Sequence record: MN850614.1
DNA from: Escherichia phage adrianh
Length of the DNA: 64,000 bases
Strand: one strand, 5' to 3'
The position numbers and the translations under genes were made by a program. Shown here piece by piece: positions 5,151-18,421 of this stretch (positions are counted from its first letter, which is position 1; every line of letters begins with the position of its first letter). The notes under the pieces were generated by a model, which was given only the letters and a program-made list of their open reading frames with translations, did no database searches and was not told the origin of the DNA.

Positions 5151-5388
5151 TTATTCTGGCAAGTGGACTTATGACATCAACAAGTTAGATGCCTGGATTA
5201 TTTATACAAGAGAAAAATTTGGTGCACATCCATTATGTGCTCTTGCAACGATTGTAAAGAATGTCACCTTTGCCATACACGAGTCAGATAAATTTGGAGA
5301 CTTCTACAGGATTCAAAACATCAGAGAAGGTGTAACTCCAATCGGTATCACTGAAGAAGAACTCCATAAGTTCTGTATTAAACTTTAA
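5111..5388 (+). CDS. Hypothetical protein
   Basis: Track ORF 5032..5388; internal ATG at 5111 with upstream purine-rich stretch. Confidence 0.35.
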
Positions 5389-5403
5389 TGAGAGAGACTA
5401 AAA

Positions 5404-5670
5404 ATGGGAATTTTAGGTAATATGAAGGCTGGCTTCTTGAAGGCACTGGCAAAAGCAGCAGCAATCATTTCTATGACTGGAAAGCAGGTCGGTGTAGATG
5501 CTTCAGCGGTTGCACAGGTTCTTACAAGCCAAATTGAACAGCAGCCTTACATCTACGTAGGACGTGGTAAAGGTGGTAAGAAACAAGCTCACCACCAGTC
5601 TGGTGCAGCAGCTATTAAACGAGCAGCTAAGAAAGCTCGTAACCGTAAACGTAATAAGAAGGTTAAATAA
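5404..5670 (+). CDS. Small highly basic protein (hypothetical)
   Basis: 88 aa, Lys/Arg-rich C-terminus (KRAAKKARNRKRNKKVK). Confidence 0.5.
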   Translation: MGILGNMKAGFLKALAKAAAIISMTGKQVGVDASAVAQVLTSQIEQQPYIYVGRGKGGKKQAHHQSGAAAIKRAAKKARNRKRNKKVK

Positions 5671-5672
5671 TC

Positions 5673-5993
5673 ATGAGCAAAGTATATAACACTCGCAAAT
5701 TACAGATTTTCGTACTGTGCCAGTTTATGGCTAAAGAATATAACTTCTACTATTGCGGCACAGGTTTTATTAGCGATGATGATGGTTCATACCTACCATT
5801 TAAAGAAGCTGTGAAGCTCTTTAATGAAGAGAAAAACTCTAAGAAAGATATTGAAAAGGTCAAGCTAACCTATAGCAAGAAAGATAAGAAGATTATCTGC
5901 CTAGATAACTTTGTAAAAGTTACTGGAGAAGCAAAAGAGTTTATGGATGAGAGTGAGATTTCATTCACAAGCATCTTGAAAGTAGCTCAGTAA
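5673..5993 (+). CDS. Hypothetical protein
   Basis: 106 aa ORF. Confidence 0.45.
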   Translation: MSKVYNTRKLQIFVLCQFMAKEYNFYYCGTGFISDDDGSYLPFKEAVKLFNEEKNSKKDIEKVKLTYSKKDKKIICLDNFVKVTGEAKEFMDESEISFTSILKVAQ

Positions 5994-14032: not shown

Positions 14033-14047
14033 TAAGTAATTTCTTAA

Positions 14048-14072
14048 AAGGCTGCTTCGGCGGCCTTTTTTA
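14048..14072 (+). terminator. Rho-independent terminator (UUCG tetraloop)
   Basis: GGCTGC TTCG GCGGCC then TTTTTT. Confidence 0.6.
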
Positions 14073-14132: not shown

Positions 14133-14681
14133 ATGAAGAAATTGATTCTAGGTTTGTGCTTAATGTTTACAGCACACTTATCTTATGCAGTTGACTGCCC
14201 AGAGCTATCAATTAGCCAAAAAGTAAACATGTTAAAAGCTTACCAGTATGGTGAGAATAACATGGGTAAAGGTTGGGGTATCACTCTAGCTGCTATAGCC
14301 TTACAAGAGTCAGAGTTAGGTCTGAAGGTAGAGAATAAAAAGACACATGATTATGGTATCTTCCAGAATCACTTGAAGACTGTTGTAAAGCGTAACAAAA
14401 TCAGTCCTAATGTGGCTAAAAAGAAACTCTTAAAAGACTTTGACTATGCTGCTAAGGAAACTCACAAAGAGCTTGAGTTTTGGACAAAGGTGCATGGTCA
14501 GCCAAAGTCAAAGAAGACTTTACAAAAAGTCTTAGCATCATATAATGCTGGGTATTCGTACAGAATCCCTAAAGCTAAGAAATATTCTCAAGATGTTTAT
14601 AACAATATGAAAGTAATTGCTCAATGTGAATTTGCAACAAACATTTCTAAGGTAAACCATGAAAAAATTAAGAAAGTCTGA
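14133..14681 (+). CDS. Secreted lytic transglycosylase (SLT domain)
   Basis: Signal-peptide-like N-terminus; SLT motifs LQESELG, GIFQ, SYNAGY. Confidence 0.55.
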   Translation: MKKLILGLCLMFTAHLSYAVDCPELSISQKVNMLKAYQYGENNMGKGWGITLAAIALQESELGLKVENKKTHDYGIFQNHLKTVVKRNKISPNVAKKKLLKDFDYAAKETHKELEFWTKVHGQPKSKKTLQKVLASYNAGYSYRIPKAKKYSQDVYNNMKVIAQCEFATNISKVNHEKIKKV

Positions 14682-15354
14682 TGAAGTATTGTGCCATGCT
14701 TATGACTTACATCCTCATGAGTTAGTTCTTGATTCCTGTGTATGGACTCCAGAACAGTGCAGGGATTTTGAAGACACCGCAAGAGAAGTTGTATGTTCAC
14801 TTGAAGAGTTCCACACATCAGAGCCAATTGTGAATGTTGTAGATAAAGAGACTGGACAAACTATAGGTGTAAGTCGTGATAGCTTAGTCATAGTCAATAA
14901 AGACCTTGTAGAAAAAGGTAACCTCATCTTAGCAGATATTGATGGTGTTCTTACAAATTTTAATCACGAAGATTGCTCAACGGAATTGACTGATGGGTCA
15001 TTCTCACAGTACACTAATCTTCTTGACTCTGTAAGAGCAAAACCAACGTATGTCTTTAGTATTATTGATGCAATTGCTAATCATGCTGCCATTGGACTCT
15101 TGACAGCGAGAGGTGAATCTCAGAGAATACCTACTGAGATGTTTTTAAGGCACAATATAGAGCATGATTACTTGCTTTTTATGCGTGGTTTTGGAACTAA
15201 CTCTATAAGTGCAGAAAGTTTGAAAGTGAGGATGATTCAGTCTTGCATTCTTCCTTACTTTAATATAGTATGTTTTATAGAAGATACAGAGAAGAATGTT
15301 CAGAAGGTAAACAGAATCCTTCCACACATTAAAACCATGTTAGTTAAACACTGA
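14659..15354 (+). CDS. HAD-like hydrolase (hypothetical)
   Basis: 231 aa; LILADIDGVLT resembles HAD motif I (DxDG[TV]). Confidence 0.4.
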   Translation: MKKLRKSDEVLCHAYDLHPHELVLDSCVWTPEQCRDFEDTAREVVCSLEEFHTSEPIVNVVDKETGQTIGVSRDSLVIVNKDLVEKGNLILADIDGVLTNFNHEDCSTELTDGSFSQYTNLLDSVRAKPTYVFSIIDAIANHAAIGLLTARGESQRIPTEMFLRHNIEHDYLLFMRGFGTNSISAESLKVRMIQSCILPYFNIVCFIEDTEKNVQKVNRILPHIKTMLVKH

Positions 15355-15363
15355 GAGAAACTT

Positions 15364-15828
15364 ATGAACAATATCATTACGGTAGCACTGGACGTTACAG
15401 CAAACAAATCTGAAGTAGTTCGTAACATTATCAAGAGCAACTTTGAAGGTAAAATCTTCCGTGCTGTCAATGTAAAAGCAGACGGTAACATCCGGGAGTA
15501 TCGTGCTCTTCTGAATGTTAAGAAACACGTAAAAGGTGCTGGTTCAACGACTGCACACAAAGAAAACCTGATGACTATCTATGATATGGGTATGGCTTCA
15601 GAGTTAGGTACTGAAGGTATCGTTAAAGAAGGTGCTCCGTATCGCTCTTTCAATCTGGAAACTGCTCTTATGCTTTCCTTTACAAGTGGTTCTAAAACAA
15701 CTACTTATCTCTTTACTGATGCTGCAACGGTATCTGCTATCAAGGATAGCACTGTCAAAGCTGGGGTAGCTGCTGCTGCAAAAGCTTCTTCGATGGCTGC
15801 AAATGTCCTTGCTAAAGTCCTCGGTTAA
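15364..15828 (+). CDS. Hypothetical protein
   Basis: 154 aa ORF, Ala-rich C-terminus. Confidence 0.45.
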   Translation: MNNIITVALDVTANKSEVVRNIIKSNFEGKIFRAVNVKADGNIREYRALLNVKKHVKGAGSTTAHKENLMTIYDMGMASELGTEGIVKEGAPYRSFNLETALMLSFTSGSKTTTYLFTDAATVSAIKDSTVKAGVAAAAKASSMAANVLAKVLG

Positions 15829-15839
15829 GGTTAAGATAC

Positions 15840-15862
15840 AGGCTCCTTCGGGAGCCTTTTTC
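15840..15862 (+). terminator. Rho-independent terminator (UUCG tetraloop)
   Basis: AGGCTCC TTCG GGAGCCT then TTTTT. Confidence 0.6.
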
Positions 15863-15880
15863 ATTTCAGGAGATTGTTAA

Positions 15881-16228
15881 ATGACATTTAAAGAGTTCTG
15901 TCAAGCTACTTTCATAATTGTTTTCTTAGTTGGGGCAGGTGTCTGGGGAGGATACTCTTACAGAGACTATCAAGTTGCTGAAGCTGAGCTAAATAATGAG
16001 AAACTAATAAGTGTTGCCAAAGATGCTTATCAGGAAGGTTTAGCCACACTGAGCACCAATTACAAAAATGATTTGAAAGATGTGCTTGCTAAGAATAAGC
16101 ATACAAAAGAGGTACTAACGTATGAAAAGACTAAGCCAGAGTTTTATAATGTTTGTGTTACTGATAATTATGTCAGGGTGTTCAACGAACAAAGTGAGCA
16201 GTACATTCAAAAACTCCCAAGTAAGTGA
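15881..16228 (+). CDS. i-spanin-like protein (N-terminal TM, coiled-coil)
   Basis: 115 aa; hydrophobic N-terminus then charged helical region; overlaps next lipoprotein ORF. Confidence 0.4.
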   Translation: MTFKEFCQATFIIVFLVGAGVWGGYSYRDYQVAEAELNNEKLISVAKDAYQEGLATLSTNYKNDLKDVLAKNKHTKEVLTYEKTKPEFYNVCVTDNYVRVFNEQSEQYIQKLPSK

Positions 16229-16391
16229 GAGTGATAAGTACACTCAAGAAGAATCACGGTATATCATCAAAGGCAACACAGGTAGTGATGTAGCAGCAGC
16301 ACTTGAGTTCTACCGTGACGGATTTTACCAGTGTACAATCAAAGCTAATAACCTTATTGACATGATTTTATTAGGGAATAAGCAGCAATGA
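16122..16391 (+). CDS. o-spanin-like lipoprotein
   Basis: 89 aa; signal peptide with lipobox-like IIMSGC; start embedded in upstream ORF in another frame. Confidence 0.4.
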   Translation: MKRLSQSFIMFVLLIIMSGCSTNKVSSTFKNSQVSESDKYTQEESRYIIKGNTGSDVAAALEFYRDGFYQCTIKANNLIDMILLGNKQQ

Positions 16392-16657
16392 CAGAGAACG
16401 AAGATACTTTCTATGTAGAAGGGTACTTACTGCTACCACGACCAAAAGAAACTTATATGCGGGTTGATTTCTCACCAACCATTATGGATAACGTGATGTG
16501 TCATATCTTTATGCAAGGTGTCACAGCACAACTTAAGCATGTTGGTAAAGAGTGCAAAATAAAGGTTGACACTCATCCAGAAATCAAAGAGAATCACTAC
16601 ACATGGTTCTTACCAGACTCTAAAGAAATCTTAGCAGTTCTTAAAACGAGGAAGTAG
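16388..16657 (+). CDS. Hypothetical protein
   Basis: 89 aa ORF. Confidence 0.4.
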   Translation: MTENEDTFYVEGYLLLPRPKETYMRVDFSPTIMDNVMCHIFMQGVTAQLKHVGKECKIKVDTHPEIKENHYTWFLPDSKEILAVLKTRK

Positions 16658-16659
16658 CT

Positions 16660-16986
16660 ATGCAGATTAATGGAAGAGACTTTGTAGCCGTTTACTATGA
16701 TAACGATAAAGAAGTTGGTGTAGCACAGGTAACCTATGGCAATGGTAAGTGGCTATATGGAACAATCGCAGTAGTAGGAACAAGAAGTGATACAAAAACT
16801 TTTAAAGATTGTGTTGACCTTCTTGAAGAATCCATCCACAATCATTGGTGTCTGATATGGATGACTGACAATGAAGTGATGGAACGTTTCAAAAAGATTG
16901 ATATCAACATAGACAGCATTGAGCATGTTGACTTGTATGAACTGACTGAGAAGGTAAATTATGAAAGTAATTCTAGCCAGAGATAA
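16660..16986 (+). CDS. Hypothetical protein
   Basis: 108 aa ORF. Confidence 0.4.
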   Translation: MQINGRDFVAVYYDNDKEVGVAQVTYGNGKWLYGTIAVVGTRSDTKTFKDCVDLLEESIHNHWCLIWMTDNEVMERFKKIDINIDSIEHVDLYELTEKVNYESNSSQR

Positions 16987-18167: not shown

Positions 18168-18235
18168 GAAACTTCGTAGTATATTCACAATAGACTAAGC
18201 CTTTCTTATCTGGTAAATTTTTCAGGTAAGGAGGG

Positions 18236-18421
18236 TTTTTTCATTTCAGATTTGTGCAGGTAGAGTTCTGTAGAGAAATCTATAGAGAAAATTTTGAACT
18301 CCAAAGAGAAAATTCATTTTCAAACTGTGCAGGTAATCTCCAAAGGGTTTTTTTCATTTTCAAAACGTGCAGAGAAAAATCAGGTCGGGCAAGAAAAATC
18401 ATTTTAGAATTGTGCAGGTAG
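18236..18421. repeat. Four tandem copies of a CATTTTCAAA-N2-GTGCAG(GTA) element
   Basis: Copies at about 18236, 18310, 18347 and 18393; related copy near 14066-14092. Confidence 0.6.

What the first reader, a model, noticed from the sequence alone, without database searches (positions are those of the whole stretch)
15881..16391. Overlapping gene pair with spanin-like architecture
The 115 aa ORF has an N-terminal transmembrane segment followed by a charged helical region (i-spanin-like), and the 89 aa ORF that starts inside it in another frame encodes a lipoprotein signal peptide with a lipobox-like IIMSGC (o-spanin-like). Overlapped or embedded i-/o-spanin pairs are a hallmark of Gram-negative phage lysis cassettes. 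Here the pair is far from the lysozyme gene (31391-31855, opposite strand), so the lysis functions appear dispersed.
Basis: inference. Interest (0 to 1): 0.5.

Follow-up and report, generated by a model that had tools for sequence, protein, structure and literature searches.

The report
Felix O1-type overlapped spanin gene pair
The two overlapping genes are the inner- and outer-membrane spanin genes of a Felix O1-like phage, which break the host's outer membrane at the end of infection; they are real and correctly read, but already catalogued.

Summary
ORF 15881-16228 (+, 115 aa) has one N-terminal transmembrane segment. ORF 16122-16391 (+, 89 aa) starts inside it in the +1 frame with a 107-nt overlap, and encodes a lipoprotein signal peptide (lipobox MSGC, Cys20, Ser at +2). 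The window is a Felixounavirus (Felix O1-like myophage). The same pair, with the same lengths and overlap, is annotated i-spanin/o-spanin in many GenBank records. It is also listed as an 'overlapped' spanin pair for Felix O1 in the spanin census of Kongari et al. 2018 ('JH2' families). Both frames show coding-type selection. The pair, its overlap, the lipobox Cys and one periplasmic Cys in each protein are conserved across Ounavirinae and into phiEco32-like podophages. In Pectobacterium phage Wc4 the homologous pair lies directly after the endolysin gene. The pair is not sequence-related to T4 PseT.3/PseT.2 and only marginally similar to lambda Rz. The lysozyme at 31391-31855 (-) is confirmed. 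The scattering of lysis genes in Felix O1-like phages is already published. No member of this spanin family has been tested experimentally as far as I found. Verdict: interpretation supported, already known, low interest.

The parts
15881..16228 (+). i-spanin gene (115 aa). It has a short N-terminus, one transmembrane segment at about residues 6-25, and a periplasmic domain of about 89 residues. The conserved C-terminal motif is EK-x4-F-x-N-x-C-x4-Y-x3-FN.
   Evidence: ORF. phrog_1152 'Rz-like spanin' E 8.9e-42 over the full length. Hydrophobicity. Annotated i-spanin in Mushroom, humlepung and others. 100% identical protein in 3 listed phage records. Invariant residues.
16122..16391 (+). o-spanin gene (89 aa precursor, 70 aa mature). 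It comprises a signal peptide (residues 1-19), the lipidated Cys20, a poorly ordered linker to about residue 45, and a C-terminal helix (about 54-88). The helix carries the conserved motif LE[FW][YW][RQ]D-x2-[YFT]-x-C-x4-N-x-L.
   Evidence: ORF. phrog_4180 E 1.2e-50, phrog_2425 2.5e-9, phrog_456 'Rz-like spanin' 1.9e-4. Lipobox test. Annotated o-spanin with the same 270-nt coordinates in Mushroom, Moogle and phiSUSP1. AlphaFold C-terminal helix pLDDT about 75-83. Conservation.
16122..16228 (+). 107-nt dual-coding overlap. It encodes the C-terminal 35 codons of the i-spanin and, in the +1 frame, the signal peptide and first mature residues of the o-spanin.
   Evidence: Coordinates. Divergence per site is about halved relative to the flanking single-coding parts. 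The same 107-nt overlap is listed for Felix01 and Moogle in the Kongari 2018 supplement.
15905..15955 (+). Codons for the i-spanin transmembrane segment (about residues 9-25).
   Evidence: Kyte-Doolittle maxima 1.75 (19-residue window, 6-24) and 2.91 (11-residue window, 11-21).
16179..16181 (+). Codon of Cys20 of the o-spanin, the predicted signal peptidase II cleavage and lipidation site. The following Ser21 is also invariant, so there is no Asp at +2.
   Evidence: C20 and S21 invariant in 7 divergent homologues.
16154..16156 (+). Codon of Cys92, the only periplasmic cysteine of the i-spanin. It is invariant in all homologues compared.
16332..16334 (+). Codon of Cys71, the only cysteine of the mature o-spanin apart from the lipidated one. 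It is invariant in all homologues compared.
15868..15872 (+). Shine-Dalgarno sequence AGGAG of the i-spanin gene, 8 nt before the ATG.
   Evidence: Sequence. The same string is recorded for Felix01 and Mushroom in the Kongari 2018 supplement.
16109..16112 (+). Shine-Dalgarno sequence GAGG of the o-spanin gene, 9 nt before ATG 16122. It supports M1 as the start rather than the internal Met codons used by some annotations.
   Evidence: Sequence. A ribosome-binding site is annotated at the equivalent place in Mushroom and Moogle.
15840..15862 (+). Terminator-like hairpin (AGGCTCC-TTCG-GGAGCCT followed by TTTTT) between the preceding 154-aa gene and the i-spanin ribosome-binding site.
   Evidence: Consensus scan only. 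Its function was not tested.
31391..31855 (-). Endolysin (soluble T4/P22-type lysozyme, 154 aa). It is the functional partner that must degrade the peptidoglycan before spanins can act. It lies 15.0 kb from the spanin pair on the other strand.
   Evidence: PF00959 Phage_lysozyme E 4.8e-40. phrog_7 endolysin 4.6e-56. Annotated endolysin/lysozyme in relatives.

Best explanation
The two genes encode the two-component spanin of a Felix O1-like (Felixounavirus) myophage.

Shown here:
- The 115-aa product has a single N-terminal membrane anchor and a polar C-terminal domain.
- The 89-aa product has a signal peptidase II-type signal peptide with Cys20 and Ser at +2.
- Both reading frames are under coding selection.
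- The pair is conserved as an overlapped unit.

Inferred from established knowledge of lambda Rz/Rz1 and T4 PseT.3/PseT.2:
- The first protein inserts N-in/C-out in the inner membrane.
- The second is lipidated at Cys20, cleaved, and sorted by Lol to the inner leaflet of the outer membrane, because residue +2 is not Asp.
- Their C-terminal regions bind each other across the periplasm through the meshes of the peptidoglycan.
- The complexes are held inactive until the holin-released lysozyme (31391-31855) removes the wall.
- They then oligomerise laterally, change conformation and fuse the inner and outer membranes, which completes lysis.
- The one invariant periplasmic cysteine in each subunit (i-spanin C92, o-spanin C71) lies in the most conserved C-terminal motif. 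Each probably forms an intermolecular disulfide that stabilises the complex near the i/o interface.

The overlap places the o-spanin signal peptide in the +1 frame of the i-spanin C-terminus. This keeps the two genes linked and co-transcribed.
For: Architecture and signals.

Family assignment:
- phrog_1152 'Rz-like spanin' at 8.9e-42 for the i-spanin.
- phrog_4180 at 1.2e-50 for the o-spanin, with a weak match to spanin phrog_456.
- The window i-spanin differs at 3 of 115 residues from the Felix01 i-spanin sequence printed in the Kongari 2018 supplement, and at 1 residue from Mushroom's.
- Felix01, Mushroom and Moogle belong to the 'JH2' overlapped i-spanin and o-spanin families of that census.

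Annotation in public records:
- The region is annotated i-spanin/o-spanin in many of the 257 near-identical records.
- The coordinates are identical in Mushroom, Moogle and phiSUSP1.

Selection: third-position bias in each single-coding part and halved divergence in the overlap.

Conservation:
- tblastn finds the i-spanin in 402 phage records and the o-spanin in 313, every one covering at least 80%.
- An overlapped TMD-protein plus lipoprotein pair, with overlaps of 107-137 nt, is present in Mooglevirus, Suspvirus, Hafnia phage SarahDanielle, Kolesnikvirus M7, Pectobacterium phage Wc4 and phiEco32.
- C20, S21 and C71 of the o-spanin and C92 of the i-spanin are invariant.

Genomic association with lysis: in Wc4 the P22-type endolysin gene ends 8 nt before the i-spanin homologue.

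No competing candidate: no other credible lipoprotein ORF exists in the 64-kb window.

Literature: Tolen 2015, Nguyen 2015 and the Meda announcement describe these genes as the spanins of Felix O1-like phages.
Against: - There is no experimental test of this spanin family. I found no complementation, localisation or mutant data for any Felix O1-type spanin. All support is bioinformatic.
- The mature o-spanin has no proline and is predicted partly helical, unlike lambda Rz1.
- According to the Kongari supplement, no coiled coil is predicted in the Felix01 i-spanin.
- My i-spanin structure model is unreliable (pLDDT 56).
- The pair sits among early-type genes (rIIA/rIIB, polynucleotide kinase, macro-domain phosphatase). 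It lies directly after a terminator-like hairpin with no room for a promoter, so its timing and route of expression are unknown.
- Pfam and NCBIfam have no model that recognises either protein.
Confidence: 0.9

Rival explanations
1. The 89-aa protein is an outer-membrane lipoprotein with another role, for example superinfection exclusion by receptor masking (as with T5 Llp or Cor-type lipoproteins). The 115-aa membrane protein would then be functionally unrelated, and the overlap would merely reflect tight gene packing.
For: - The best PHROG for the lipoprotein (phrog_4180) and the related phrog_2425 are labelled 'unknown function'.
- The genes lie in an early-type gene cluster rather than next to the endolysin.
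- The mature protein lacks the proline richness of lambda Rz1.
Against: - The two genes stay together and overlapped across genera that share only 21-35% (i-spanin) and 25-45% (o-spanin) identity, including a podophage lineage.
- In phage Wc4 they follow the endolysin gene directly.
- The i-spanin is in a PHROG annotated as spanin.
- No other spanin candidate exists in the window, and a myophage of Enterobacteria is expected to need one.
- T4's functional spanins also lie away from its holin and endolysin and next to its polynucleotide kinase gene.
Confidence: 0.06
2. The 89-aa ORF is not translated from ATG 16122. Either it is a chance open frame, or the real product starts at an internal Met (M17 or later), as in the 73-, 68- and 65-aa versions called by automatic annotation. 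It would then lack a signal peptide.
For: - humlepung and HMD-P10 annotate shorter versions of 222 and 198 nt.
- Many database clusters hold 73- or 68-aa forms.
- A lipobox-rule match appears by chance once in about 30% of shuffled windows.
Against: - The N-terminal 19 codons are conserved as a signal peptide (K/R n-region, hydrophobic core, [GAS]-C) in all seven divergent homologues. Cys20 and Ser21 are invariant.
- A GAGG Shine-Dalgarno lies 9 nt before ATG 16122.
- The o-only part shows a strong third-position bias, 0/0/14 and 0/0/17 against close relatives.
- Truncated calls are the known bias of gene finders against overlapping genes, as described in Kongari 2018.
Confidence: 0.02

Closest known systems
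Felix O1 / Mushroom / Moogle spanins ('JH2' overlapped i-spanin and o-spanin families of Kongari et al. 2018; phrog_1152 and phrog_4180)
   Same: The gene lengths (348 and 270 nt), the 107-nt overlap, the +1 frame and the ribosome-binding-site string are all the same. The i-spanin is 97-99% identical to Felix01 and Mushroom (3 and 1 differences in 115 residues). The o-spanin differs from Mushroom's at 3 of 89 residues. Identical proteins exist in GenBank.
   Different: Nothing of substance differs. This is another isolate of the same genus.
phiEco32-like (Kuravirus) podophage spanins (phi32_39 and the mis-started phi32_38)
   Same: The i-spanin is in the same PHROG (1.8e-37) and shares the C-terminal motif EKTKPVFYNVC-x4-Y-x3-FNE. 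A lipoprotein gene overlaps its 3' end by 116 nt and carries the motif LEWYQDQY-x-EC-x4-N-x-L. A macro-domain gene lies downstream, as in the window.
   Different: Identity is only about 27% (i-spanin) and 25% (o-spanin). The o-spanin has an extra cysteine. It is annotated from an internal Met in EU330206 and was not grouped with the Felix O1 o-spanins in the 2018 census.
Phage P2 LysB/LysC (paradigm of the 'overlapped' spanin architecture)
   Same: The o-spanin gene starts inside the i-spanin gene in another frame and ends beyond it.
   Different: They belong to different families in Kongari 2018. I did not compare the sequences directly.
Phage T4 PseT.3/PseT.2
   Same: It is a functional two-component spanin, proven by lambda complementation (Kongari 2018). 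It is located away from holin and endolysin and next to the polynucleotide kinase gene. Its o-spanin has a predicted C-terminal helix rather than a proline-rich coil. The protein sizes are similar (117 and 99 aa).
   Different: There is no detectable sequence similarity (BLASTP E 17 and 8.8), and the PHROGs differ (739/812). The T4 genes are separated rather than overlapped. The cysteine pattern is 0 in the i-spanin plus 2 in the o-spanin, against 1 plus 1 here. The gene order relative to the kinase gene is reversed.
Phage lambda Rz/Rz1
   Same: The topology is the same: a type II inner-membrane protein plus an outer-membrane lipoprotein encoded in the +1 frame. Both have periplasmic cysteines near the C-terminal parts. 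There is marginal similarity over the membrane anchor and first helix (pairwise E 0.001; lambda Rz hits phrog_1152 at 1.5e-4).
   Different: Rz1 is fully embedded in Rz, is 40 aa when mature and is proline-rich. Here the gene is only partly overlapped, the mature protein is 70 aa with no proline, and it has a predicted helix. Lambda's genes sit in a contiguous S-R-Rz/Rz1 cassette. Here the lysis genes are scattered.

Membership tests
Two-component spanin (functional class, as defined by Summer 2007 and Kongari 2018) | The i-spanin is a small protein with a single N-terminal transmembrane domain and a periplasmic C-terminal domain. | tested here: met
   One hydrophobic segment at residues 6-24 (Kyte-Doolittle 1.75), followed by 89 polar or charged residues. 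The N-in/C-out orientation is inferred, not tested.
Two-component spanin (functional class, as defined by Summer 2007 and Kongari 2018) | The o-spanin is a small protein with a signal peptidase II signal sequence and a lipobox Cys, without an inner-membrane retention signal (Asp at +2). | tested here: met
   A PS51257-like rule is matched with Cys20. The lipobox is MSGC and residue +2 is Ser, invariant in homologues. LipoP and SignalP were not available.
Two-component spanin (functional class, as defined by Summer 2007 and Kongari 2018) | The two genes are adjacent in an embedded, overlapped or separated arrangement, with the i-spanin gene first. | tested here: met
   Overlapped by 107 nt, o-spanin in the +1 frame. 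The arrangement is conserved in six other lineages.
Two-component spanin (functional class, as defined by Summer 2007 and Kongari 2018) | There is at least one periplasmic cysteine available for intermolecular disulfide bonds (507 of 528 pairs in the census). | tested here: met
   i-spanin C92 and o-spanin C71, both invariant.
Two-component spanin (functional class, as defined by Summer 2007 and Kongari 2018) | The subunits form a complex through their C-termini, and the pair is required for outer-membrane disruption (complementation of lambda RzamRz1am). | not testable with these tools
   This needs genetics and biochemistry. I found no such experiment for this family in the papers searched.
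Kongari 2018 'JH2' i-spanin and o-spanin families (Felix O1 type) / phrog_1152 and phrog_4180 | Sequence similarity of the periplasmic domains to family members. | tested here: met
   phrog_1152 E 8.9e-42 and phrog_4180 E 1.2e-50, both full length. There are 3 differences in 115 residues from the Felix01 i-spanin printed in the supplement. The family lists include Felix01, Mushroom and Moogle.
T4 PseT.3/PseT.2 spanin families | Sequence similarity to PseT.3 and PseT.2. | tested here: not met
   BLASTP E 17 and 8.8. The T4 proteins fall in phrog_739 and phrog_812, not 1152 and 4180.
T4 PseT.3/PseT.2 spanin families | Separated gene architecture, with two conserved cysteines in the o-spanin and none in the i-spanin. 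| tested here: not met
   Here the genes are overlapped and the cysteine pattern is 1 plus 1. T4 features are taken from Kongari 2018.
Lambda Rz/Rz1 families | Sequence similarity to Rz (phrog_13) and Rz1 (phrog_3198), with a proline-rich o-spanin embedded in the i-spanin gene. | tested here: not met
   Only marginal similarity over the membrane anchor and first helix (E 0.001). The PHROGs differ. The mature o-spanin has no proline. The gene is overlapped, not embedded.

The most novel reading that the evidence does not exclude
The i-spanin and o-spanin each have exactly one invariant periplasmic cysteine (C92 and C71). Each sits in the most conserved C-terminal motif, which is the presumed i/o interface. 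These could form a heterotypic i-spanin-to-o-spanin disulfide, that is, a covalent bridge from inner to outer membrane. In lambda and T4 the demonstrated disulfides are homotypic dimers. Kongari et al. 2018 remarked that a heterotypic requirement 'would not have been surprising' but had not been seen in the two systems tested. Nothing I could compute distinguishes homotypic from heterotypic bonding here.
Probability: 0.15. Interest if true: 0.4.

Novelty: already known. Interest (0 to 1): 0.08.

Why it matters
Spanins carry out the last step of lysis of Gram-negative hosts. A correct call matters for annotating therapeutic and biocontrol Felix O1-like phages. This pair adds nothing new, because the genes, their overlap and their separation from the endolysin are already in GenBank and in the 2018 spanin census. 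There is modest practical value. Many public records still annotate the o-spanin from an internal Met, which removes the signal peptide, or not at all. In addition, this large family (several hundred phage genomes) has never been tested experimentally.

Tried and rejected
- **Homology to T4 PseT.3/PseT.2.** This was suggested by the 'T4-like lysis system' wording in the Mushroom paper and by the shared polynucleotide kinase neighbourhood. It is rejected on sequence.
- **Pfam and NCBIfam.** No model recognises either spanin. Only sub-threshold noise and lipoprotein-signal matches appeared.
- **PDB sequence search.** No relative has a solved structure.
- **AlphaFold2 on shallow alignments.** The large protein search returned only close relatives.
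  - The i-spanin model has pLDDT 56 and is unusable beyond 'mostly helical'.
  - In the o-spanin model only the C-terminal helix is moderately confident.
  - I therefore ran no fold searches.
- **The 185-aa gene at 39129-39686 as the holin.** One relative labels it 'holin'. I do not adopt this. It is DUF7338/phrog_2143 of unknown function and is mostly annotated hypothetical. It has 55-60% identical homologues in T4-like phages, which have their own holin. The Meda paper states that no holin was identified.
- **A sigma-70 promoter for the pair.** I looked between the upstream hairpin and the i-spanin ATG. There is no room for one, and the scan found no more promoter-like sites than in shuffled sequence.
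- **The 'RegB-like endoribonuclease' label on the 182-aa upstream gene.** Rejected in favour of a secreted lytic transglycosylase.

Full report
**What is in the sequence.**
The second ORF is in the +1 frame of the first, and they share 107 nt.

- The 115-aa protein has one hydrophobic segment: Kyte-Doolittle 1.75 over residues 6-24 and 2.91 over residues 11-21. An 89-residue polar, charged domain follows.
- The 89-aa protein begins MKRLSQSFIMFVLLIIMSG|CS. This has a K/R n-region, an uncharged hydrophobic core, Gly at -1, Cys20 and Ser at +2. It fits a PROSITE PS51257-type rule.
- Met at -3 falls outside the narrowest lipobox definition. Relatives carry LISGC, SISAC, MSGC, MSAC or TASC at the aligned position.
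- AGGAG lies 8 nt before the first ATG and GAGG lies 9 nt before the second.
- Across all six frames of the 64-kb window, only 2 of 727 start-stop combinations of at least 60 aa pass the lipoprotein rule. The other is a Cys-rich ORF antisense to a tail gene.

**Are both frames real genes?**
I compared the 511-nt region with five relatives that have no indels.

| Region | Against Moogle (codon positions 1/2/3) | Against close relatives | Divergence per site |
|---|---|---|---|
| i-spanin-only part | 15/9/38 | not listed here | 0.22-0.26 |
| o-spanin-only part | 10/5/32 | 0/0/14 (Mushroom), 0/0/17 (HMD-P10) | 0.22-0.29 |
| 107-nt overlap | 7/2/3 (i-frame) | not listed here | 0.11-0.12 |

Substitutions sit mainly at third positions of the frame that is coding in each single-coding part. 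The halved divergence in the overlap is the pattern expected for two translated, overlapping genes.

**What the window is.**
- Megablast of 15300-16700 finds 257 phage records. Nearly all are Felixounavirus (Felix O1-like myophages of Escherichia, Salmonella, Shigella and Citrobacter). The best is Escherichia phage humlepung at 98.4%.
- The local gene order is rIIA, rIIB, a 182-aa secreted protein, polynucleotide kinase, a 154-aa protein, i-spanin, o-spanin, several small genes, and a macro-domain phosphatase.

**Already annotated and published.**
- Salmonella phage Mushroom, annotated by the Center for Phage Technology, carries 'i-spanin' (348 nt) and 'o-spanin' (270 nt) with the same overlap and ribosome-binding sites. 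So do Moogle and phiSUSP1.
- Proteins 100% identical to the window's i-spanin and o-spanin exist in GenBank phage records.
- The supplement of Kongari et al. 2018 (PMC6139136) lists Felix01 as 'ovl', with the i-spanin at 5330-5678, the o-spanin at 5571-5841 and a 107-nt overlap. It prints an i-spanin sequence that differs from the window's at 3 of 115 residues.
- That paper's tables place Felix01, Mushroom, Moogle, WV8 and others in the 'JH2' overlapped i-spanin family (15 members, including phiEco32) and the 'JH2' o-spanin family (11 members).
- Tolen et al. 2015 describe Mushroom's lysozyme, holin and inner and outer membrane spanins.
- Nguyen et al. [quoted passage not shown] The Meda announcement says the same.

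**Independent support from relatives.**
- tblastn finds the i-spanin in 402 phage records and the o-spanin in 313. Every match covers at least 80% of the query.
- The surplus of i-spanin hits comes from phiEco32-like podophages.
- I fetched six divergent loci: Mooglevirus, Suspvirus, Hafnia phage SarahDanielle, Kolesnikvirus M7, Pectobacterium phage Wc4 and phiEco32.
- Each has a TMD-protein gene whose 3' end is overlapped by a lipoprotein gene. The overlaps are 107, 107, 131, 137, 128 and 116 nt.
- In phiEco32 the lipoprotein gene is annotated from an internal Met. The open frame extends upstream to MRKLNQFFIMSALVMSMSAC, a proper signal peptide. The annotated part falls in phrog_2425, which the window's o-spanin also hits at 2.5e-9.
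- Invariant residues in the i-spanin are E82, K83, F88, N90, C92, Y97, F101 and N102.
- Invariant residues in the o-spanin are C20, S21, G54, E62, C71, N76 and L78.
- In Wc4 a P22-type endolysin gene ends 8 nt before the i-spanin homologue. The pair therefore forms a true lysis cassette in that phage.

**Structure.**
- No relative has a solved structure.
- The large protein search returned only close relatives, so the AlphaFold alignments were shallow.
- The i-spanin model is mostly helical but has mean pLDDT 56. I do not rely on it.
- The o-spanin model shows the signal-peptide helix, a low-confidence linker (residues 19-43, pLDDT below 50) and a C-terminal helix at residues 54-88 with pLDDT about 75-83. 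That helix contains the conserved motif and C71.
- The mature o-spanin has no proline. In that respect it resembles T4 PseT.2, which has a predicted C-terminal helix, more than the proline-rich lambda Rz1.
- The Kongari supplement appears to list about 66% helix and no coiled coil for the Felix01 i-spanin periplasmic domain. The columns are unlabelled in the extract.

**Relation to the paradigms.**
- Against T4 PseT.3 and PseT.2 there is no similarity (BLASTP E 17 and 8.8). The T4 proteins fall in other PHROGs (739 and 812).
- Against lambda Rz there is a marginal match confined to the membrane anchor and first helix (E 0.001). Lambda Rz also touches phrog_1152 at 1.5e-4. I read this as shared composition or very remote kinship, not family membership.
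- The pair works like Rz/Rz1 and PseT.3/PseT.2, but it belongs to its own family, which is already named.
- One curiosity: in T4 the spanin genes also lie next to the polynucleotide kinase gene, in the order pseT.3, pseT.2, pseT.1, pseT. Here the kinase gene lies upstream of the pair. With no sequence similarity between the spanins, this may be coincidence.

**Mechanism (inferred from lambda and T4).**
1. The i-spanin anchors in the inner membrane with its C-terminal domain in the periplasm.
2. The o-spanin is lipidated at Cys20, cleaved by signal peptidase II and sorted to the outer membrane, because residue +2 is Ser.
3. The C-terminal regions bind each other through the peptidoglycan mesh.
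4. After the lysozyme (31391-31855, minus strand; PF00959 E 4.8e-40) is released and removes the wall, the complexes are free to cluster and fuse the two membranes.
5. The single invariant periplasmic cysteine in each subunit probably makes stabilising intermolecular disulfides.

Whether those disulfides are homotypic (as in lambda and T4) or heterotypic cannot be decided here. A heterotypic bond is the most novel reading left open.

**Other lysis genes.**
- The lysozyme lies 15.0 kb from the spanins on the other strand.
- One relative labels the 185-aa gene at 39129-39686, inside the tRNA cluster, as 'holin'. This is not secure.
  - It is DUF7338/phrog_2143 of unknown function.
  - Most records call it hypothetical.
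  - It has 55-60% identical homologues in T4-like phages.

**Expression context.**
- A terminator-like hairpin (15840-15857 plus a T run) lies between the preceding gene and the i-spanin ribosome-binding site. There is no room for a promoter after it.
- The o-spanin stop codon overlaps the next gene's start (ATGA at 16388-16391). The pair therefore heads a tightly packed run of genes that ends at another terminator-like site near 18200.
- These are consensus matches only.

**Verdict.**
The feature is already known, and interest is low.

Noticed in passing
window 14133-14681 (+): This 182-aa protein has a Sec-type signal peptide (MKKLILGLCLMFTAHLSYA|VD) and lies two genes upstream of the spanins. 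It is annotated 'endoribonuclease, T4 RegB-like' in Mushroom but 'putative lysin' elsewhere. Its distant homologues carry Pfam SLT. The alignment has invariant E59-S60, Q78 and Y137-N138-x-G140, which I recognise as the lytic-transglycosylase motifs. A profile of it hits the T3SS lytic transglycosylase EtgA (8urn, E 6.9e-4) and goose lysozyme. It therefore looks like a secreted SLT-type lytic transglycosylase, and the RegB label looks wrong. Its role (second muralytic enzyme or something else) is unknown.
   Followed up: partly
window 15840-15862 (+); also 14046-14069 and 18197-18238: Terminator-like GC hairpins with T runs bracket two apparent gene blocks. The one at 15840 ends only 23 nt before the i-spanin ATG, leaving no room for a promoter. 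The spanin genes would therefore have to be expressed by read-through, or the hairpin is a processing or stability element.
   Followed up: no
window 39129-39686 (+), inside the tRNA cluster 36148-41046: This 185-aa membrane protein (DUF7338, phrog_2143 of unknown function) is embedded among 24 tRNA genes. A few records call it 'holin' or 'putative holin', but most call it hypothetical. It has 55-60% identical homologues in T4-like phages of Klebsiella, Enterobacter and Escherichia (e.g. RB16). The holin label is doubtful, and the holin of this phage group remains unsettled.
   Followed up: partly
L008 (Pectobacterium phage Wc4, MN270891) 794-1776: In this Ounavirinae member a P22-type endolysin gene lies immediately upstream of the i-spanin homologue (1269-1628). 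The overlapping o-spanin homologue (GTG 1501-1776, lipobox SISAC) is not annotated. Here the scattered Felix O1-type lysis genes form a contiguous cassette.
   Followed up: partly
L006 (phiEco32, EU330206) 2679-2939: Gene phi32_38 is annotated from an internal Met (57 aa). The frame is open upstream to an ATG that gives an 86-aa lipoprotein (MRKLNQFFIMSALVMSMSAC...). This protein is a remote homologue of the Felix O1-type o-spanin, although the 2018 census placed only the i-spanins of the two groups in one family.
   Followed up: partly
public records matched: Many Felixounavirus records annotate the o-spanin from internal Met codons (73, 68 or 65 aa, without the signal peptide) or leave it unannotated. 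One paper (PMC8300805) concluded that phage vB_Si_DR094 has 'only the i-spanin'. However, its DNA matches the whole 15300-16700 region at 97.1%, so that is probably an annotation gap rather than a gene loss.
   Followed up: partly
GU169904.1 'Staphylococcus phage SA1' and two 'Campylobacter' records: Records named for phages of unrelated hosts contain DNA that is about 93% identical to this Felixounavirus. The SA1 record is 147 kb. These are probably chimeric or contaminated assemblies.
   Followed up: no
window 14659-15354 (+) versus T4 (L012 3003-4782): The spanin pair lies next to a polynucleotide kinase gene both here and in T4 (pseT.3, pseT.2, pseT.1, pseT). The spanins show no sequence similarity, and the order relative to the kinase gene is reversed. 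This could be coincidence or a remnant of shared ancestry of the region.
   Followed up: no
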